64,000 nucleotides of DNA from Naegleria gruberi. Taxonomy: Eukaryota. The notes below the pieces were generated by a model. The model made no database searches and had not been told where the DNA came from. It saw only the letters and a list, made by a program, of their open reading frames with translations. The stretch lies in assembly GCA_000004985.1 (NCBI GenBank), contig GG738849.1; one strand, 5' to 3'. Below, one piece after another: positions 29,996 to 39,010 of this stretch. Position 1 is the stretch's first letter; each line of letters starts with the position of its first letter. The translations under genes were made by a program, and so were the position numbers.

Positions 29996-31144
29996 TTAAT
30001 GTTTTGATCTTTTTTGAGGAATGAAAACTTGAGCAAAGTAGTTTTCAATGTATTCTTTGGGATTGTCACCAAGAACTGAATGACCAGCTTTGGAAATTTC
30101 AATAAAATTACATTCATAATTTTTACAGAGTAAATTGAATAGTCTTTCCAATTGTTCTCGTGTTGTTACAGAGCTGTCTGCACCTCTAACGATGGAGACT
30201 TTGACATTTTGATAATCTTGCTTTGTTTCGAGGGCTTTCCATAATTCTTCCCTTAAATTTCTTTCAGTGTTTGCTGCCATATTATCAATACTAAAAGTGG
30301 TGTCATATTTCCATGTCCATAAATTTGTTTCTGGATTGCATTTCAAGGAGTATTTCAATCGAGTGGTCAAATTCTCAACACTTCTCCTTGGATTATACTT
30401 TTGAGCCCAAGCCAAAAATTCCTCAAATGTATTAAATGTTTGAGTGGATTTAACTTGTTGAGAGACACTTTGAGTTCCTTGTGGAATTATTGAATGGACA
30501 GGAATTTGATCAGGAGAAATATCAATTAATGAAATTGAATGCAAATGATTTGCTAAAATTTTCTCAAATCTTGATAAGGTTTCCGAATTGATTCCACCAC
30601 TCAATGAAAGAGTTGATTTCCTATCGGTGAGCAGAGCATTCATGAGAATAATTCCACCCAAACTCATACCAACAAATGAAACTCTATCAAATGATTCCTT
30701 CTCCAAATATCTTACCACAAACAAGATTAAATCAGCCACAAATCCATCCATACTATATTGATTTGGAGTGTGTGCAGAGTCTCCGTGCCCTCTCAAATCC
30801 ACAGAAACAAATCGAAATCTATTATTCAATGAGTGTCGTTGCAATGAATTATTTTCTTCTTTCTGATAATAATTGTAAAATTCCTCTACAAAATCATCAA
30901 AGGTATGACAAGTCTGAAATGATCCATGTAATAAAATTATTAAATGTTTTTCATCACGATTAATTCCGATTGTTTGTGGTGATGAAGAAGCTTCTTCTTC
31001 CGATTCTACTATTTGATTATTTAATAAAAGTTGAATATAATGCAATTTTCCGAGAGGAGTAAATTCTAATTTTTCATCAATTTTTGAGTGCTTCCCGTAC
31101 AGATCATGGATGAAATGATCACTAAATACAAGTTGTTGAGACAT
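29996..31144 (-). CDS. alpha/beta-hydrolase fold protein
   Basis: ORF 29996..31177; the first ATG (MSQQLVF…) is at 31144 in an A-rich context. Motifs seen: HGSFQTCHTF, DLRGHGDS, nucleophile elbow GMSLGG, C-terminal …KAGHSVL. Confidence 0.7.
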   Translation of the reverse strand: MSQQLVFSDHFIHDLYGKHSKIDEKLEFTPLGKLHYIQLLLNNQIVESEEEASSSPQTIGINRDEKHLIILLHGSFQTCHTFDDFVEEFYNYYQKEENNSLQRHSLNNRFRFVSVDLRGHGDSAHTPNQYSMDGFVADLILFVVRYLEKESFDRVSFVGMSLGGIILMNALLTDRKSTLSLSGGINSETLSRFEKILANHLHSISLIDISPDQIPVHSIIPQGTQSVSQQVKSTQTFNTFEEFLAWAQKYNPRRSVENLTTRLKYSLKCNPETNLWTWKYDTTFSIDNMAANTERNLREELWKALETKQDYQNVKVSIVRGADSSVTTREQLERLFNLLCKNYECNFIEISKAGHSVLGDNPKEYIENYFAQVFIPQKRSKH

Positions 31145-32148
31145 TTTTTTTGTAAAGAGTAAATAAGTATTGATCAATCTTTAAAGTATTGCATCATGTT
31201 ACAAAAAATCTTGGCAGTAAATGAATTCAGGACAATCTCCAAATATAAAAAACGTGTTGTTTTGAACGACCATTTTTGATCCTTATCTTCCTAATAAGCA
31301 TAAAAACCATCAATACATTGTTAAACAACATTTCTGGTAGTTACCTTAATGTTAATATTATTTAACATGATCATCAACTAGTATACTTTACAATCTCTGT
31401 AAATTCTTCAAGTAAAAGACAATATTCGGTGTCCACACAAAGCTTTCAATAGTTCAACCTTTGTGGAACTGTGTGTAAGTTTCTATTGTAAACTTCGCAC
31501 ATCGAATTCTATTGGCTTGTGGTCTTTTTGAACATCTATGTAGATAATAGCCAACGACAAAATCATTTCCAACACAAAGAACAGAGCGAGGAGAATACTT
31601 CCGATATCTTGCTATCTGTGTGTACATCCAATCGTTTAAGCGTCATTGAATATCTGCTTTACTACATCTTTACTATTGACTTTTTCAAAGTATGTTTGTC
31701 TCTCGTTTCAAAACTAGACTCAAACATGTGAAATCTCCTCTTTTTACTCTCAATGCACCCTTTAAAAAACGCCCGAATATATTAAATAATAAATATTCAC
31801 CAAACACTGGATAAGGTGTGCGAACGGTAGCAAGCCGACTCGACTTCGCTGGGCAATTTGCTGCGTTGACCTCACAATATTCCAAATAAATCCTAATTCA
31901 AGAAGGCTAAGCATTTTTATCAAAAAAAAATCACCAATTTCCAACACGCGCGCTTGTTTTGAGTGAATTGGTTCTTTGTGAAAACAAGTTTTGTGTTCAT
32001 CTCAAATAACAACAACAATCAATATATCAATATATCAACAATTATTGTGTCGTAATTTTTTAAAGGAACAACACACAATTTTTCAAAGACTAATATTCAA
32101 GTTTACTAGTTGAATTCAACTCCCGATAATAATTCATCACAATATAAT

Positions 32149-34020
32149 ATGGCTCCAATGAAGACTGCTGCTGTTACTACTCCAGCAACTACCACAACCA
32201 CAACTACTCCAGTCACTACCACAGCATTATTGCAAAATGTTCAATCCACACTTTCTAAATCCCTTGACACTTCTCTCAATGTCATTGGTAAACAACTTCA
32301 AACTCTGGGTGTTAACCTTCCACAAGATCAACAAGAAAAGCTTAGCATGGCTGTTGGTTTAACAGGAGTTGGTGCCACTCTTTATATTTTGAATAAGATC
32401 TGCAGTAAGATTATGAGAATGCTTACATTACCAAAACCAAGTTTTGCCAAGAAGGATTACGATGTAGTCATTGTTGGTGGTGGTATTGGTGGTTGTGCAT
32501 TGGGAAGTGCATTGTCTAAGGCTGGAAAGAATGTGTTGGTTCTTGAAAGAGATATGAGTGAGCCAGATCGTATCATTGGTGAATTGCTTCAACCTGGTGG
32601 TGTTCAACATTTGAAAGATTTGGGACTCGGACATTGTCTTGAAGGAATTGATGCTGCCAGAGTTTTTGGTTATCAAGTTTTCTATGGTGATGAACAAGTC
32701 AATTTGCCATACCCAGCTGATTCCAACAGTAAGGTTGGTGAAAAGGTCGAAGGTAGATCATTCCACTATGGTAGATTCATTATGAATTTGAGAAGAGCTT
32801 GTGAACAAGACGGGTAAGTATCAGTTAATTTTTTCACAAGTGTGATTGAAATATTTTATAGAGCTAAGATCTTGGAAAGAACTGTTGTTTCATTGATTGA
32901 AAAGACACCAGGTTTGATTGAAGGTGTTCAATATAAGGAAGGTGATGCCACTGTTGAAGCTACTGGTAATATCGTCGTTGTCTGTAACGGTGCTGGTAGC
33001 TCTTACACTAGACAAGTTCGTTCTGATAAGGTCGGAAGTGGTAACAAGCCATTGGTTGTTTCTCAATTCATTGGTTTGGAACTTGCTGCTTCTGCTGACA
33101 AGTTGCCAAGACCAAATCACGGAAACGTATTCCTCTTGCCAGATGCTCCTTGCTTGCTTTACCCAAATAGTACAACTACAGTTAGATGTTTGATCGATTT
33201 CCCTGATGGAGATGCCAACAAATTACCAAAGAGAGGCGAAGAAATGGCCAAATACCTGCTTGAATATATCATGCCACACTTGCCAGAAAATTTACATGAA
33301 TCTTTCAAAGCTGAAGTTGATGCTGGCAGAATTAAGGTTGTTCAAAATCGTGAAATGCCAGGTGAAACACCAGAATCACTCACCAAGAAGGGAGTTGTTC
33401 TGATTGGTGATGCCATGAATTGCAGACATCCAATCACTGGTGGTGGTATGACTGTCACATTCTCCGATTGTAAGGAATTAGTTAAGGCCATTGTTCAAAT
33501 TAAGGATTTGAACTGTGTTTCTGAAGTTGATGAAGCAATTCAATCATTCTATGTTAACAGATCTAAGGTTGCAAGCACTATTAACATTCTTGCCAACGCA
33601 TTGTACAGTATCTTTGCTCCACCATCTGGAAGCAAATCTTGGGAAGCATATAAGAGTGAAGGTAAGAAGCCAGACGCTCTCTCAAACAATGACAGCATGT
33701 CAATTATGCGTAGAGCTGTTTTCGGATATTTCAAGAAGGGTGGTATTTGTCAAACTGGTCCATTGTCATTATTGAGTGGTATTTGGCATTCACCATATGG
33801 TCTCATTGCTCACTTCTTCTCTGTGGCCGTTATTGGTTCAGTTGATCTCATTAAGGAAGGAGGTATTTTGGGTATCTTTGGAAGTATATATAAGAGTTTG
33901 AAGATGATAACTGGTGCTACTACTCTCATTGCTCCACTTATTGCTGAAGAACGTTTATTATCTTGTATTTTCCCTGGTTTCATTTGGAGAAGAAAGCCAC
34001 TTCCACACCACCAAAAGTAA
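32149..34020 (+). CDS. squalene monooxygenase (squalene epoxidase), copy A
   Basis: Exons 32149..32813 and 32862..34020. Intron is 48 nt, GTAAGT..TATAG, phase 2, and the join gives …ACEQDG|AKILERTVV…. FAD-binding DYDVVIVGGGIGGCA, LQPGG, and NCRHPITGGGMTV match squalene monooxygenase. T-rich N-terminal extension with one TM helix. Confidence 0.8.
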
Positions 34021-34379: not shown

Positions 34380-36099
34380 ATGGTAAATACCTTTCAGAAC
34401 TTTCACCTAATTGCAAACATGTTCCACCTCGAAAGTTTATTTCAACTGTTTCACACTTCACATAAGATGTGGACAATAACTGGTTGTGGTCTTGTTGGCC
34501 TAATCATTCACAGGATATTAAACAAGTTTTACAAACTCCTGACATTACCAAAACCAAGTTTTGCCAAGAAGGATTACGATGTCGTCATTGTTGGTGGTGG
34601 TATTGGTGGTTGTGCATTGGGAAGTGCATTGTCTAAGGCTGGAAAGAATGTGTTGGTTCTTGAAAGAGATATGAGTGAGCCAGATCGTATCATTGGTGAA
34701 TTGCTTCAACCTGGTGGTGTTCAACATTTGAAAGATTTGGGACTTGGACATTGTCTTGAAGGAATTGATGCTGCCAGAGTATTTGGTTATCAAGTTTTCT
34801 ATGGTGATGATGAACAGGTCAATTTGCCTTATCCAATCGTTGAGGGAGGAAGAGCAGAAGGTAGATCATTCCACTATGGAAGATTCATTATGAATTTGAG
34901 AAGAGCTTGTGAACAGGATGGGTAAGTATCAAATAGTTTTCATATCAACTTAATGAAACCGAATGTTAAAGGGCTACATTATTGGAAAGAACTGTTGTTT
35001 CATTGATTGAAAAGACACCAGGTCTGATTGAAGGTGTTCAGTATAAGAAAAACAACAACGATTCAACTGTTGATGTCACTTGCAAACTTGTGATTATTTG
35101 CAATGGAGCTGGTAGTTCATTCACTAGACAAGTTCGTTCTGATAGATTTGGAAATAAGCCATTGGTTGTTTCTCAATTCATTGGTTTGGAACTTGCTGAC
35201 AGTGCTGAAAAATTACCAAAACCAAATCACGGAAACGTTTTTGTTTTACCAACTGGACCTGTTTGCTTTACCCAAACAGTTCTTTAACAGTGAGATGTTT
35301 AGTCGACTTTCCACATCCTGATTCGAATAAGTTACCAAAGAGAGGTGAAGAAATGACCAAATACTTGCTTGAATATATCATGCCACACTTGCCAGAAAAT
35401 TTACATGAATCTTTCAAGGCCGAAGTTGATGCTAGCAGAATTAAGGTTGTTCAAAATCGTGAAATGCCAGGTGAAACACCAGAATCACTCACCAAGAAGG
35501 GAGTTGTTCTGATTGGTGATGCCATGAATTGCAGACATCCAATCACTGGTGGTGGTATGACTGTCACTTTCTCCGATTGTAAGGAATTAGTTAAGGCCAT
35601 TATTCAAATTAAGGATTTGAACTGTGTTTCTGAAGTTGATGAAGCCATTCAATCATTCTATTCAAATAGGAAAAAAGTTGCATCCACAATTAATATTCTT
35701 GCAAATGCTTTGTATTCGATTCTTGCTCCTTCATTAACAGTAGTAAGAAATGATCAAGAGAAAACAATACACAAAGATGACACAGTTTCCTTATTGCGTA
35801 GAGCTGTTTTTAGGTACTTACAAAGGGGAAGCTTTTGTCAAACTGGTCCATTGTCATTATTGAGTGGTTTGTGGCATTCACCATATGGCCTTTTATTTCA
35901 TTTCTTTTCTGTTGCCTTACTGGGTTCAGTTGATCTCATTAAGGAAGGAGGTATTTTGGGTATATTTGGAAGTTTATATAAGAGTTTGAAGATGATAACT
36001 GGTGCTACTACTCTCATTGCTCCACTAATTGCTGAGGAACGTTTATTATCTTGTGTGTTTCCTCGATTCTTTTGGAAGAGAACTGCACCGATCAAGTAG
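34380..36099 (+). CDS. squalene monooxygenase paralog, copy B (frame-disrupted; possible young pseudogene)
   Basis: ATG at 34380. Exon 1 is 34380..34921 and a 50-nt GTAAGT intron has its acceptor at about 34971. It is about 90% identical to copy A from 'LTLPKPSFAKKDYDVV' onward but has an unrelated 55-aa N-terminus. Relative to copy A it carries a 1-nt deletion near 35263-35270 (A: ccttgcttgcttt; B: cctgtttgcttt). That creates a stop (…PTGPVCFTQTVL*), after which the copy-A-homologous frame continues intact to a TAG at 36099. Confidence 0.6.
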
Positions 36100-36506: not shown

Positions 36507-37182
36507 ATGGCAAAAGCTGAATTTCTAAAAGCACCAATTCATGATCTTTACGCCTGGGCTCGTACCAGTTCATTGTGGCCAGTTTCCTTTGGCTTGGCCT
36601 GTTGTGCAGTAGAAATGATGCACACCTCAGCATCTGTAAGTTTATTGATCATGTTACACATTCTTCAATGTTGATTGGTGTTAAAAAGAGATATGATATT
36701 GAAAGAATGGGTATCTTTTACAGACCAACTCCTCGTCAATCTGATGCCATGATTATTGCTGGCACTTTGACAAATAAGATGGCACCAGCACTTCGTAAAG
36801 TTTGGGATCAAATGTCTGAACCAAAGTATTCAATTTCAATGGGATCTTGTGCGAATGGTGGTGGATATTATCATTATTCGTATCATGTTGTGAGAGGTGC
36901 TGATCAGATAGTTCCTGTGGATGTTTATGTTCCTGGTTGTCCTCCAAGTAAGTAATTGTTAGTTCAATTATAGAATACTAAATGGAATGATAGCTGCTGT
37001 GAGTATTAAAGTATTAAATAAGTGAATTAACATTCATTTAGGAAGCATTATTGTATGGTATTTACATGTTACAAAAGAAAATTAAGAGAAATCCATATAG
37101 AGCTGATGTGATTGCAGAAGATTTCAATCATTATCCAGGAAAGGTTGAAAGAAATCAAATAACACCACTCAATCAATTGTAA
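36507..37182 (+). CDS. NADH:ubiquinone oxidoreductase 20 kDa subunit (NDUFS7/PSST, complex I)
   Basis: Four exons: 36507..36635, 36689..36947, 36994..36998 (a 5-nt micro-exon 'CTGCT' flanked by GTAAGT and GTGAGT introns) and 37042..37182. Translation gives …[20 protein letters not shown]|[12 protein letters not shown]…[37 protein letters not shown]|TA|[19 protein letters not shown]…. The 'PPTAEALLYG' junction matches NDUFS7 homologs exactly. Confidence 0.75.
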
Positions 37183-37237: not shown

Positions 37238-39010
37238 CTATAAATCCCAAATATCTGGTGAAATTCCATTTGATGATTTGGAGGTTGATTGATCATTCTC
37301 TGTCATGGAGTTTATGAACTCTATTACTGAAGATAGAAAAGTATCCTGATTTTCTTGATTCCAATCCACATGTGTTTCTATAAAATCAGTCGACGAAACA
37401 ACTGTTGGAAATGGATCAGACATGACAATTTGTCTTTTTAGAATTTCACTACATTCCTCAATTAATTGCTTGTTACTTTTGTAGACATTTTTGAATCTCG
37501 CTCCTAATGATTCGAGGGCTTTCAAATCTTTTTCCAGTAATGCAAAATTATCAAATGAAATAGTTTTTCCAGATGATGTTCGAATGGATGACTTTCTATC
37601 ACGTCTTTTCTCCTCAATTTCCTTACAAAGATTCAAATGAAATTCACATGCTTTTCTTATTCCTACATCTGTGAAAGGATAGGCAAATCTAAGTTGTTTT
37701 TGAATATAAAACTGATATCAAAGAGATAGATTACATACTTGAAAAGATCATTCTCAGTTAGGAGTGTAATTCTCAGTGCAGTTTCCTCAATTAAGGATTC
37801 TCCAGAAATTTGAGGAATCTTCATAAAGAACATTAACCTAAAGCCATCACTAATAATATTTCTCACCAAGTTATCAAGATCCATATAATTCTTTGATATG
37901 CATGATTGATCCTTCATGTTGGTATCAATCACCACACTCATCTTTAGTTGATTTGCAAAACCAACTACGCTTTCTAATAAATATTTGAAAATCAAGTAAT
38001 TGGAAGAATCAGGTTGACTATTTTTCAAATAATTCCAAACTTCAGGCATTATAAAATCTTGAATCGATTTACCTTGCAGTATTTTACAAAAATTGACTAA
38101 TGCCGAAATAAGTGCAGTAAAATCTCCCACAGAATCATTATCACTCACATAGGACAAGAACAAGTATGATTGATGAAAATTTCTCTCAAATATGTCGACT
38201 ATTTCCATATCATCCTTTCTTTTCAAAAAGTATAAATCAGCATAATGTCTATAAAATCTTGTCTTCTCCTCTTGACAAGATGCTCTTAAATATAAACTAA
38301 GAGCACAACACCCCGCAGCATAATACATATTATCAAAGCACTGGAATGAATATTTGTGAATTTGTTTTTCACATAAACCAGCAGCAAGCTCTGCTAGTTC
38401 ACTATCAGCATTGAATTGATAATACAGTGAAAGCAGAGCCGAATACCAAACCAATAGACCCTTCATTTCTTCCTCTGATTTAATCAACTCATTAAATTCC
38501 AATAATTCAGTCTCCTCCACTTGTAAACACAACTCTAGACCATTCATTGTAAAGTGGGAAAACTTTTCTCTCGATAGAATAGGACACCCATTCGCTAATA
38601 TATCAAAATAAAAGTTTACCAATATCATACCATCAGGGAGGAGAACACCTTTCCATTCGGGACTAATTTTCCTCTTCTTTCTCTTTGAATTATCCAACAA
38701 ATTTGATTTTCTTCCTTTCCTTGGTTCATACTGAATTTTCATCATCATTCAAAATGTTTACTTCAAAAAGAATTTAAATAAACGTACGGAACAAGTAATT
38801 CCCCTTGTGGAGCAATAGGAACAGGCAGGTAATTTCTTGTCACACTAATTATAATTAATAAATTTAATTATTTCGGAATGAAGAATTTACCTTTTTGTGA
38901 TTGGTTTTACATTTGATACATGAAATTGGGTAAAATTGTTGTGGTGGTTGCTGTTGCTCTTCATTACTATCTGAAGTAGCAAAAGATGGGCTAGGAGGTG
39001 TTGTGAACAT
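37238..39010 (-). CDS. Zn(II)2Cys6 (GAL4-type) zinc-cluster transcription factor with fungal-type middle homology region
   Basis: Four exons (minus strand): 38891..39010, 38788..38844, 37739..38730, 37238..37688. Introns are 46, 57 and 50 nt. The N-terminus, spliced across the first intron, reads SCIKCKTNHKK|CDKKLPACSYCSTRGITC (CX2CX6CX6CX2CX6C), followed by a basic KRKKRK stretch. TAG stop. Confidence 0.7.

What the first reader, a model, noticed from the sequence alone, without database searches (positions are those of the whole stretch)
34380..36099. Tandem squalene monooxygenase duplication; copy B has a swapped N-terminal exon and a -1 frame break
Two squalene monooxygenase genes lie head-to-tail about 360 bp apart and share an intron position. 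Identity starts abruptly at codon 'LTLPKPSF', and upstream of it copy B has an unrelated 55-aa TM-containing N-terminus. Copy B's second exon has diverged by in-frame indels, which suggests continued selection. It also carries a single-base deletion near 35263-35270 that truncates the protein unless a -1 shift occurs. It is either a pseudogene caught early or a functional paralog with a sequence error.
Basis: seen in the sequence. Interest (0 to 1): 0.55.

Follow-up and report, generated by a model that had tools for sequence, protein, structure and literature searches.

The report
Duplicated squalene epoxidase, one copy frameshifted
The amoeba Naegleria gruberi has two neighbouring, already catalogued squalene epoxidase genes that keep copying patches of sequence into each other, and the second copy has a one-base deletion that the public annotation hides behind an invented intron; this is ordinary gene-family evolution and a database correction.

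Summary
The window is N. gruberi NEG-M. Copy A (32149-34020, 607 aa) is exactly XP_002681586.1. Copy B (34380/34467-36099) is XP_002681587.1. Both are already listed as ERG1 paralogs (Zhou 2018).

B lacks one base at 35260/35261, two codons before the catalytic Tyr (human Y335), and the reading frame stops at 35285-87. The GenBank model bridges this with a 53-nt "intron" (35279-35331, GTTCTT donor). That segment evolves like coding DNA, so I judge the intron an artefact.

The "swapped N-terminal exon" is not supported. B's membrane helix is a diverged homolog of A's. The abrupt start of identity is the edge of a gene-conversion tract. Synonymous divergence is about 0.13 in five tracts and about 1.3 between them.

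B evolves about ten times faster than A in protein sequence. It stayed under purifying selection, with omega about 0.23 in old blocks and about 0.11 for recent B-specific changes. A real deletion would be younger than about 0.01-0.02 substitutions per site.

One assembly cannot separate a young null allele (about 0.5) from a consensus error (about 0.4). Interest is low.

The parts
32149..32813 (+). Copy A exon 1: Thr-rich N-terminal extension, TM anchor and FAD-binding domain.
   Evidence: The spliced product equals XP_002681586.1 exactly. Pfam finds DAO and FAD_binding_3.
32814..32861 (+). Copy A intron, 48 nt, GTAAGT..TAG.
   Evidence: Splicing restores the 607-aa ORF. The position is the same in N. 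lovaniensis and Naegleria sp..
32862..34020 (+). Copy A exon 2: SE domain and C-terminal membrane helices, with the stop at 34018-34020.
   Evidence: PF08491 scores 229 bits. It aligns to human SQLE 6C6N with E = 1.9e-80.
34380..34466 (+). First 29 codons of copy B's ORF (MVNTFQ..SHK). They have no homolog in A or in the orthologs and may be 5' UTR.
   Evidence: No similarity by tblastn or blastn. The GenBank model starts at 34467.
34467..34541 (+). Copy B membrane anchor, a strongly diverged homolog of A 32350-32424.
   Evidence: The ungapped, register-fixed BLOSUM62 score is 31 against -19 +/- 11 for shuffles, reached by 6 of 1e5 shuffles. The test against N. lovaniensis gives the same result.
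34542..34826 (+). Conversion tract H1 (FAD-binding domain).
   Evidence: A-B dS is 0.066 here, while A-ortholog dS in the same codons is about 1.0.
34857..35047 (+). Conversion tract H2. It is interrupted by the unconverted intron 34922-34971 and its flanking codons.
   Evidence: A-B dS is 0.30 against 0.7-0.8 to the orthologs. Only the first 10 nt of the intron are alike.
34922..34971 (+). Copy B intron 1, 50 nt, GTAAGT..AAG.
   Evidence: It has the same position and phase as A's intron and is part of the GenBank model.
35129..35197 (+). Conversion tract H3.
   Evidence: A-B dS is 0.29 against 0.5-1.8 to the orthologs.
35198..35340 (+). Unconverted block D3, which holds the frame break.
   Evidence: A-B pS is 0.64, dS 1.46 and omega 0.12.
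35260..35261 (+). Site of the 1-nt deletion. B reads CCT|GT where A reads CCT TGC. It lies two codons before the Tyr that aligns with human Y335.
   Evidence: DNA alignment, frame analysis, mapping to 6C6N, and the role of Y335 in PMC6327030.
35285..35287 (+). TAA that ends the upstream reading frame (..GPVCFTQTVL*).
35279..35331 (+). The 53-nt 'intron 2' of GenBank model XP_002681587.1 (GTTCTT..AATAAG). I judge it an annotation artefact that bridges the frameshift.
   Evidence: The model is reproduced exactly with this intron. The donor differs from the GTAAGT seen at all nine ORF-joining introns of the window. The segment differs from A by 6/2/11 changes at codon positions 1/2/3, with pS 0.91 against pN 0.20.
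35263..36099 (+). Copy B downstream frame: the SE domain, 278 codons, open to the stop at 36097-36099.
   Evidence: ORF list. PF08491 scores 198.7 bits.
35341..35661 (+). Conversion tract H4 (GD..NCRHP.TGGGM region).
   Evidence: A-B dS is 0.094 against 0.7-1.3 to the orthologs.
35662..35919 (+). Unconverted block D4, with the -21 nt in-frame deletions and many B-specific replacements. These include the equivalents of human F477L and F495L, and YFKKGG changed to YLQRGS.
   Evidence: A-B dS is 1.04 and omega 0.33. B-unique changes are listed.
35920..36054 (+). Conversion tract H5 (C-terminal helices).
   Evidence: A-B dS is 0.116 against 0.9-1.3 to the orthologs.

Best explanation
**What it is.** This is the ERG1/SQLE locus of Naegleria gruberi NEG-M. 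A single ancestral gene was duplicated in tandem within the genus, probably on the N. gruberi branch. The ancestral gene had an N-terminal extension, one TM anchor, FAD and substrate domains, and one intron.

**The two copies.**
- Copy A kept the ancestral form and the slow rate.
- Copy B lost or never received the ~66-aa N-terminal extension but kept the TM anchor.
- B has since changed about ten times more amino acids than A.

**Gene conversion.**
- The duplication is old: synonymous sites are saturated wherever the copies were left alone.
- Ectopic gene conversion between the neighbours has repeatedly overwritten patches. About 63% of the aligned codons now lie in at least five nearly identical tracts.
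- One tract edge produces the abrupt start of identity at LTLPKPSF.

**Selection on B.** B stayed under purifying selection throughout, including the period since the last conversions.

**The deletion.**
- In this assembly B carries one 1-nt deletion inside an unconverted block, two codons before the catalytic Tyr.
- From this DNA, B can only give a 285-aa protein if translation starts at ATG 34380, or 256 aa from the annotated ATG 34467. Either product has the FAD domain only.
- The deposited protein XP_002681587.1 avoids the break only by a non-canonical 53-nt intron. That intron removes 18 conserved codons and the catalytic Tyr.

**Shown.** Gene identities, the duplication, the mosaic of conversion tracts, TM homology, the rate asymmetry, the constraint on B, and the false intron.

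**Inferred.** I take the deletion to be a real, very young loss-of-function allele, younger than ~0.01-0.02 substitutions per site. It would be fixed or heterozygous in the sequenced clone. I put this last step at only ~0.5, against ~0.4 for a consensus error.
For: **Identity**
- A equals XP_002681586.1. B's model equals XP_002681587.1.
- Both are listed as N. gruberi ERG1, with one gene in N. fowleri (PMC6136796 S1 Table).
- In the fetched stretches around the gene (about 10 kb on each side) of N. lovaniensis and Willaertia only one copy is present, and the one Logan contig of Naegleria sp. (2.1 kb) carries one. The Naegleria genes share the same intron.

**Conversion**
- In H blocks A-B pS is 0.119 (dS 0.13). 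In D blocks pS is 0.62 (dS 1.3).
- A-ortholog dS is 0.8-1.1 in those same H blocks.
- Synonymous differences are clustered: 81 runs against 114 +/- 5.6 expected, reached by 0 of 20,000 permutations. The controls A-Nsp and A-Nlov are not clustered.

**TM homology**.

**Rate asymmetry**
- There are 30 B-unique against 3 A-unique residues (p = 1.4e-6).
- At sites invariant out to Willaertia the counts are 22 against 2.

**Constraint on B**
- Omega is 0.23 in D blocks and 0.12 in the block with the break. It is 0.17 upstream and 0.26 downstream of the break.
- All other indels are multiples of three.
- B-specific changes inside tracts, polarised with a 98.6%-identical strain (L004), are 15 synonymous to 6 nonsynonymous. 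That gives omega ~0.11 and P = 2e-6 against neutrality.

**Age bound**: 151-285 disabling events are expected per unit of neutral divergence. That gives a 95% bound of 0.010-0.020.

**False intron**.

**Catalytic Tyr**.

**Timing of the duplication**: in D blocks, NJ bootstrap support is 99% for (A,B,Nlov) and 68% for (A,B).
Against: - No independent read, cDNA or second strain covers the deletion. Real allele and consensus error therefore stay nearly equally likely.
- The strong recent constraint on B and the single lesion are what a sequencing error in a working gene would also give.
- Block boundaries for H and D were drawn after looking at the data. The permutation test does not depend on them.
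- dS in the D blocks is saturated, so the age of the duplication and omega on B's own branch are rough.
- (A,B) monophyly in unconverted blocks has only 68% bootstrap support.
- Expression of B is unknown.
Confidence: 0.5

Rival explanations
1. Copy B is an intact, working paralog. The missing base is an error in the Sanger draft consensus, or is present on only one allele of a heterozygous clone. The true gene would encode a ~527-556-aa enzyme with ..GPCLLYPNSSLTVRC.. .
For: - B-specific changes since the last conversions are 15 synonymous to 6 nonsynonymous.
- Omega is 0.12-0.33 in old blocks.
- All other indels are in frame.
- There is one lesion in 1.67 kb, so any real pseudogene would have to be younger than ~0.01-0.02 substitutions per site.
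- Restoring one T gives a full SE domain with every catalytic residue checked.
Against: - The deletion is not in a long homopolymer; it is one T of a TT.
- From general knowledge, consensus indel errors in ~8x Sanger assemblies affect only about a percent of genes.
- B is the fast-evolving, partly degenerate copy, with 21 of 100 otherwise invariant D-block sites changed. That class of gene often carries null alleles.
- Relatives manage with one copy.
Confidence: 0.4
2. The GenBank model is right. A 53-nt intron (35279-35331) is spliced out, compensating the deletion, and gives the 509-aa protein XP_002681587.1.
For: - The segment is GT..AG and 53 nt long, within the 41-63 nt range of introns in this window.
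- Removing it restores the frame.
Against: - The donor is GTTCTT, whereas all nine ORF-joining introns found in the window, and the orthologs' introns, start with GTAAGT.
- The 18 codons evolve as coding sequence, with 6/2/11 differences by codon position and pS 0.91 against pN 0.20.
- Splicing would delete two core strands and the Tyr aligned with human Y335. It would also insert 6 out-of-frame residues.
Confidence: 0.03
3. Copy B is a long-dead pseudogene that looks gene-like only because conversion from A keeps refreshing it.
For: - 63% of the codons lie in converted tracts.
- B has many replacements at otherwise invariant sites.
Against: - In the unconverted blocks (183 codons, dS ~1.3) there is no stop codon, only one frameshift, and omega is 0.23.
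- B-specific changes inside tracts are strongly biased to synonymous.
- About 50-94 disabling events per unit of divergence would be expected in those blocks alone.
Confidence: 0.04
4. This is the first reader's structural reading: a recent duplication in which copy B acquired an unrelated N-terminal exon. The duplication breakpoint would then lie at LTLPKPSF.
For: - Identity switches from ~40-50% to 100% within a few bases at 34542.
- There is no similarity upstream of the TM helix.
Against: - There is no intron at that point, so no separate exon exists.
- The 25 residues just upstream are homologous to A's TM anchor, in register.
- The same kind of abrupt switch recurs at least nine more times inside the gene.
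- Synonymous saturation in D blocks excludes a recent duplication.
Confidence: 0.03
5. The frame is restored during expression by programmed -1 ribosomal frameshifting or by transcriptional slippage.
For: A single -1 step at 35260 would restore P-C-L-L-Y.
Against: - There is no X XXY YYZ heptamer in the 0 frame. CCCAAAC lies in the wrong frame, as the sequence shows directly.
- The 106 nt from the break fold no better than shuffles, with z = +0.15.
- There is no long homopolymer for slippage.
Confidence: 0.01

Closest known systems
N. gruberi ERG1 pair XP_002681586.1 / XP_002681587.1, as listed by Zhou et al. 2018 (PLoS Pathog, PMC6136796, S1 Table)
   Same: These are the same two genes. That table also shows one ERG1 in N. 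fowleri, and extra N. gruberi copies of ERG11, ERG24, ERG25 and SMT. Duplicated sterol genes are therefore a known feature of this genome.
   Different: The table gives only accessions and identities (79% and 64% to N. fowleri). It does not mention the frameshift, the artificial intron in XP_002681587.1 or the conversion mosaic. Part of the low 64% comes from the faulty model.
Human squalene epoxidase SQLE (PDB 6C6N; Padyana et al. 2019, PMC6327030)
   Same: - Copy A aligns over the whole catalytic domain with E = 1.9e-80.
- The equivalents of Y195, Q168, E165, Y335, H522 and F523 are conserved in A, and in B when B's frame is repaired.
   Different: - The Naegleria N-terminal extension and single TM anchor show no tested similarity to the mammalian N100 regulatory domain.
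- B alone has V, L and L at the positions of human L326, F477 and F495.
Tandem or multi-copy SQLE genes in plants, for example the adjacent Ulmus minor loci UlMin_030851 and UlMin_030852
   Same: Neighbouring squalene epoxidase paralogs on one contig appear among the hits (P0036 and P0056). From general knowledge, plant SQE families are multi-copy.
   Different: I did not examine them for conversion or lesions. The duplications are independent.
Interlocus (ectopic) gene conversion between tandem paralogs, as described for globin, opsin and many other duplicate pairs (general knowledge)
   Same: The gene shows a patchwork of near-identical tracts within otherwise old divergence. Synonymous differences are clustered and identity changes abruptly at tract edges.
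   Different: Nothing differs in kind. Here one partner is the faster-evolving copy and carries a possible frameshift in an unconverted patch.

Membership tests
Squalene monooxygenase / epoxidase (SQLE, ERG1; EC 1.14.14.17) | Pfam SE domain (PF08491) together with an FAD-binding Rossmann domain, above the curated thresholds. | tested here: met
   - A: SE scores 229.1 bits (cut-off 20.1), with DAO and FAD_binding_3.
- B: FAD_binding_3 scores 48.6 bits in the upstream ORF and SE scores 198.7 bits in the downstream ORF.
Squalene monooxygenase / epoxidase (SQLE, ERG1; EC 1.14.14.17) | Catalytic and pocket residues equivalent to human E165, Q168, Y195, Y335, H522 and F523. | tested here: met
   All are present in A, and in B's two frames taken together. 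Their roles are taken from PMC6327030.
Squalene monooxygenase / epoxidase (SQLE, ERG1; EC 1.14.14.17) | One uninterrupted reading frame linking the FAD domain to the substrate domain. | tested here: not met
   - This is met for A (607 aa).
- It is not met for B in this assembly. There is a 1-nt deletion at 35260/61 and a stop at 35285-87.
- The deposited B model lacks the Y335 equivalent.
Squalene monooxygenase / epoxidase (SQLE, ERG1; EC 1.14.14.17) | Squalene 2,3-epoxidase activity. | not testable with these tools
   It needs an enzyme assay or complementation of yeast erg1.
Pseudogene (unprocessed, by frameshift) | A disabling lesion in the coding sequence. | tested here: met
   There is a single 1-nt deletion in this assembly. 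It is not verified in independent reads.
Pseudogene (unprocessed, by frameshift) | Relaxed constraint: dN/dS near 1 and accumulation of further stops and frameshifts. | tested here: not met
   Omega is 0.23 in D blocks and 0.11 for recent B-specific changes. There is no further lesion, and the other indels are multiples of three.
Pseudogene (unprocessed, by frameshift) | No functional transcript or protein. | not testable with these tools
   No expression data were found. Exact B ORFs are absent from the protein collection.
Ectopic gene conversion between paralogs | Synonymous divergence is bimodal along the gene and significantly clustered, while orthologs show no such pattern in the same codons. 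| tested here: met
   - dS is 0.13 in H blocks and 1.3 in D blocks.
- The runs test gives 0 of 20,000 permutations, and the controls are not clustered.
Ectopic gene conversion between paralogs | Different tree signal in converted and unconverted segments. | tested here: inconclusive
   In H blocks (A,B) has 100% support with near-zero distance. In D blocks (A,B) has only 68% support, with a long B branch.
Spliceosomal intron (the annotated 35279-35331) | A donor matching the local consensus. | tested here: not met
   The donor is GTTCTT, against GTAAGT at nine of nine ORF-joining introns in the window and in all three Naegleria SQLE introns.
Spliceosomal intron (the annotated 35279-35331) | Non-coding mode of evolution. 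| tested here: not met
   Differences by codon position are 6/2/11, with pS 0.91 against pN 0.20 in the downstream frame.
Programmed -1 ribosomal frameshift site | A slippery X XXY YYZ heptamer in the 0 frame, followed by a stable structure. | tested here: not met
   No such heptamer lies in frame (sequence). The downstream fold has z = +0.15.

The most novel reading that the evidence does not exclude
Copy B is a working, specialised isoform and the deletion is an assembly error or one null allele.

- It would be an N-terminally shortened squalene epoxidase lacking the conserved ~66-aa extension that precedes the anchor in A and its orthologs.
- Its substrate pocket is remodelled at three positions (human L326 to V, F477 to L, F495 to L). 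These coincide with fungal allylamine-resistance sites.
- N. gruberi would then carry a naturally inhibitor-insensitive or differently regulated second enzyme, kept partly in step with copy A by gene conversion.
Probability: 0.12. Interest if true: 0.4.

Novelty: already known. Interest (0 to 1): 0.15.

Why it matters
The value is mainly housekeeping.
- The deposited protein XP_002681587.1 / D2V252_NAEGR is built on an invented intron and lacks the catalytic Tyr. It should not be used as a second N. gruberi squalene epoxidase in pathway tables, drug-target comparisons with N. fowleri, or phylogenies.
- The 64% identity quoted for it is partly an artefact of that model.
- The locus is a clean small example of how conversion tracts can mimic exon swapping or a recent duplication.
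- If copy B proves intact, its three pocket substitutions at allylamine-resistance positions would matter to anyone testing terbinafine-type drugs on N. gruberi as a stand-in for N. fowleri.

Tried and rejected
**Searches for an independent copy of B that would confirm or remove the deletion**
- Exact look-up of ten candidate ORFs found only copy A's full protein.
- A protein search with a 148-aa B-specific fragment returned nothing, not even B's own model. Fragment queries seem to work poorly with that index.
- A search with B's repaired exon 2 found only XP_002681587.1 and A-type orthologs at 69% identity or less.
- A scan of JGI metagenome contigs with B peptides found no relative.
- The ENA contig L004, from a 98.6%-identical strain, covers only copy A.

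**Literature**
- No paper mentions either accession in its main text.
- No N. gruberi expression data for these genes turned up.
- The genome paper is not held in the library.

**Sequence tests that gave nothing**
- Homology of B's first 29 codons or of the intergenic region to A's N-terminal extension or promoter: none.
- Similarity of the two 3' flanks: none.
- Enrichment of B's replacements in the substrate pocket: none, 3 of 16 against 21 of 100, Fisher p = 1.

**Ideas I dropped**
- I first read the shared derived Phe in PKPSF (A and B have F; strain X and all outgroups have I) as proof of conversion after the strain split. Polarised counts show the tracts are older than that split, with B-branch dS 0.09 against A-branch 0.024. 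The site is therefore ambiguous.
- A whole-window count of GTAAGT is not enriched over shuffles (29 against 21.5 +/- 4.6). I used ORF-joining donors instead.
Full report
**What is in the sequence**

The region holds two head-to-tail genes on the + strand.
- Copy A is 32149-32813 plus 32862-34020. Removing a 48-nt GTAAGT..TAG intron gives an intact 607-aa protein.
- Copy B's ORF opens at 34380, 359 bp after A's stop.
- B has a 50-nt GTAAGT intron at the same codon and phase (34922-34971), and its last frame ends at 36099.
- Pfam finds the squalene epoxidase SE domain at 229 bits in A, together with FAD-binding domains.
- In B the FAD-binding domains sit in the upstream ORF, and the SE domain (198.7 bits) sits in a separate downstream ORF.
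- The DNA alignment shows one missing base in B. A reads cct tgc ttg ctt tac and B reads cct -gt ttg ctt tac, at 35260/35261.
- After the deletion the upstream frame reads VCFTQTVL and stops at 35285-87. The frame that continues the homology is open from 35263 to 36099.
- The other indels between the copies are +3, -12, +6, -6, -12 and -9 nt.

**Whose genes these are**

- The spliced copy A is identical to XP_002681586.1 / EFC48842.1, squalene monooxygenase of Naegleria gruberi strain NEG-M, on an 850-kb scaffold.
- The best N. gruberi hit to A, P0002 (509 aa), is XP_002681587.1 / EFC48843.1.
- P0002 is reproduced exactly by joining 34467-34921, 34972-35278 and 35332-36099.
- The public model of copy B therefore starts at the third ATG, and it jumps the frameshift with a second, 53-nt intron.
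- Both accessions are already listed as the two ERG1 genes of N. gruberi, with one gene in N. fowleri, in the S1 Table of Zhou et al. 2018 (PMC6136796).
- The same paper and table show extra N. gruberi copies of several other sterol genes.

The tandem pair is known. I found no mention of the frameshift.

**Relatives**

- N. lovaniensis (L001) and Willaertia magna (L002) show one copy in the stretch fetched around the gene, about 10 kb on each side, with different neighbours. A third Naegleria-like organism is known only from a 2.1-kb Logan contig (L003), which carries one copy.
- The two Naegleria orthologs have the intron at the same codon, starting GTAAGT. Willaertia has no intron.
- All three carry the N-terminal extension and TM anchor seen in copy A.
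- No B-type sequence exists anywhere else in the protein collection. B's best non-self hits are A-type orthologs at 68-69%.

**The abrupt start of identity is a conversion-tract edge**

A codon-by-codon map of A against B shows long runs with almost no differences of any kind. Blocks dense in both synonymous and nonsynonymous differences lie between them.

Nei-Gojobori estimates:

| Codon set | A-B pS | A-B dS | A-ortholog dS in the same codons |
|---|---|---|---|
| Five near-identical blocks (316 codons, 63% of the alignment) | 0.119 | 0.13 | 0.8-1.1 |
| Blocks between them (183 codons) | 0.62 | 1.3 | 1.2-1.7 |

- The high A-ortholog dS in the near-identical blocks means they are not under unusual synonymous constraint.
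- A-B divergence in the blocks between them is as saturated as divergence between species.
- A test that does not depend on my block boundaries agrees. Among 405 codons that encode the same residue in A and B, the 68 with a synonymous difference fall into 81 runs, against 114 +/- 5.6 expected. None of 20,000 permutations reached that value.
- The same test on A against either ortholog shows no clustering.

This is the signature of repeated ectopic gene conversion on an old duplicate. The switch at 34542 is one of about ten such edges.

**The N-terminus is not swapped**

- No intron separates the N-terminus from the FAD domain.
- Aligned without gaps and in the register fixed by the downstream identity, B's MWTITGCGLVGLIIHRILNKFYKLL scores 31 (BLOSUM62) against A's AVGLTGVGATLYILNKICSKIMRML.
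- Shuffles give -19 +/- 11, and 6 of 100,000 reach the observed score. The result against N. lovaniensis is similar.
- A tblastn of the N. lovaniensis N-terminus against B's upstream DNA picks the same segment in the same frame.
- Further upstream nothing is alike, in either DNA or protein.
- B therefore kept the membrane anchor, in a diverged and unconverted state. It lacks the ~66-aa extension, either because the duplication was 5'-truncated or because that part decayed.
- The 29 codons from 34380 to 34466 may not be coding at all.

**How copy B has evolved**

- Taking residues shared by two orthologs as ancestral, B has 30 unique replacements and A has 3 (p = 1.4e-6).
- At sites invariant out to Willaertia the counts are 22 and 2.
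- Even so, dN/dS between the copies in unconverted blocks is 0.23.
- It is 0.12 in the block that holds the break, 0.17 upstream of the break and 0.26 downstream.
- An ENA metagenome contig (L004) from a strain 98.6% identical to NEG-M covers copy A up to 33492. It lets me polarise recent changes inside the converted tracts.
- B-specific changes are 15 synonymous and 6 nonsynonymous. That gives omega about 0.11, with P = 2e-6 against neutrality.
- B was therefore under purifying selection during the most recent period that can be measured. The dS on its branch since conversion is about 0.09, against 0.024 for A since the strain split.
- In unconverted blocks B groups within Naegleria. Bootstrap support is 99% with A and N. 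lovaniensis, and 68% as sister to A.
- This fits a duplication on the N. gruberi lineage.

**The annotated intron**

- The 53-nt segment 35279-35331 begins GTTCTT.
- A scan of the window for GT..AG segments that join two open frames of at least 80 codons finds nine distinct GTAAGT donors, with first-acceptor lengths of 41-63 nt. The three Naegleria SQLE introns also begin GTAAGT.
- Read in the downstream frame, the 18 codons of the supposed intron differ from A at codon positions 1/2/3 by 6/2/11, with pS 0.91 against pN 0.20. They have evolved as coding sequence.
- The segment encodes ..SSLTVRCLVDFPHPDSNK.
- Together with the six frame-shifted residues, the model loses the LLYPNS motif. The Tyr of that motif aligns with human Y335.
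- Padyana et al. describe Y335 as contacting flavin N5 through a water molecule, and as needed for activity in the rat enzyme (PMC6327030).
- I conclude that the intron is a device of homology-based gene modelling.

**Other rescues**

- No X XXY YYZ heptamer lies in the upstream frame. CCCAAAC at 35271-77 is in the wrong frame.
- The 106 nt from the break fold no better than shuffled sequence, with z = +0.15.

**Is the deletion real?**

- From B's own codons, 5.1% of single-base changes create a stop.
- With an assumed indel-to-substitution ratio of 0.05-0.15, a neutral B would collect 151-285 disabling events per unit of divergence.
- The absence of a second lesion then bounds a real pseudogene's age at about 0.010-0.020 substitutions per site at 95%. 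The bound is 0.03-0.06 if only unconverted blocks count.
- A long-dead pseudogene is therefore excluded.
- Two readings remain, and both predict what is seen: a very young null allele, or a consensus error in a working gene.
  - For a real lesion: the missing base is one T of a TT rather than part of a long run, and B is the fast-evolving copy that relatives do without.
  - For an error: the strong recent constraint on B.
- I put these at about 0.5 and 0.4. No independent sequence of B could be found to decide between them.

**Verdict**

This is a known gene pair showing ordinary processes: tandem duplication, asymmetric divergence, patchy gene conversion and a possible young frameshift. The useful outputs are:
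- a corrected gene structure for copy B;
- the explanation of the abrupt identity boundary;
- the rejection of both the exon-swap reading and the annotated intron;
- an upper bound on the age of the lesion.

Noticed in passing
window 35243, 35722, 35818 (copy B): Copy B alone has V, L and L at the positions of human SQLE L326, F477 and F495. These are invariant in copy A, two Naegleria orthologs, Willaertia and human. Padyana et al. list them among sites of fungal terbinafine-resistance mutations. The rate is no higher than B's general rate at conserved sites: 3 of 16 against 21 of 100.
   Followed up: partly
window 35821-35835 (copy B): The motif YFKKGGIC, conserved from Willaertia to human (YFKLGGEC), reads YLQRGSFC in copy B. 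It has lost the second Gly.
   Followed up: no
L004 1-1613 (ENA ERZ929261, run ERR1078381), aligned to window 31884-33492: A metagenome contig carries copy A of a strain 98.6% identical to NEG-M, with 19 mismatches. Its two indels both lie upstream of the ATG. It shows that close relatives of the laboratory strain are present in public environmental data.
   Followed up: yes
window 36507-37182 (+): The next gene downstream encodes a NuoB/NDUFS7-like 20-kDa complex I subunit (Pfam Oxidored_q6, 86.6 bits). It starts directly at the conserved core with no obvious targeting presequence. It has GTAAGT donors at 36636 and 36948, and I could not place the acceptor of the second intron in frame.
   Followed up: partly
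window 32149-32240 (copy A), L001 and L003 N-termini: The N-terminal extension of the A-type enzymes starts with a Thr/Pro-rich low-complexity run of variable length. A conserved LLQ..STLSK.LD.S segment follows, ahead of the TM anchor. Its function is unknown and copy B lacks it.
   Followed up: no
window 29996-31177 (-) and 37663-38748 (-): The flanking genes are an alpha/beta hydrolase (Abhydrolase_1, 54.6 bits) upstream and a 361-aa ORF with no Pfam match downstream. Neither neighbour matches the genes beside the single SQLE of N. lovaniensis or Willaertia, so local synteny is not conserved.
   Followed up: partly
one search hit list (P0036, P0056): Two squalene epoxidase genes with consecutive locus tags (UlMin_030851 and UlMin_030852) lie on one Ulmus minor chromosome. 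This is another apparent tandem SQLE pair.
   Followed up: no
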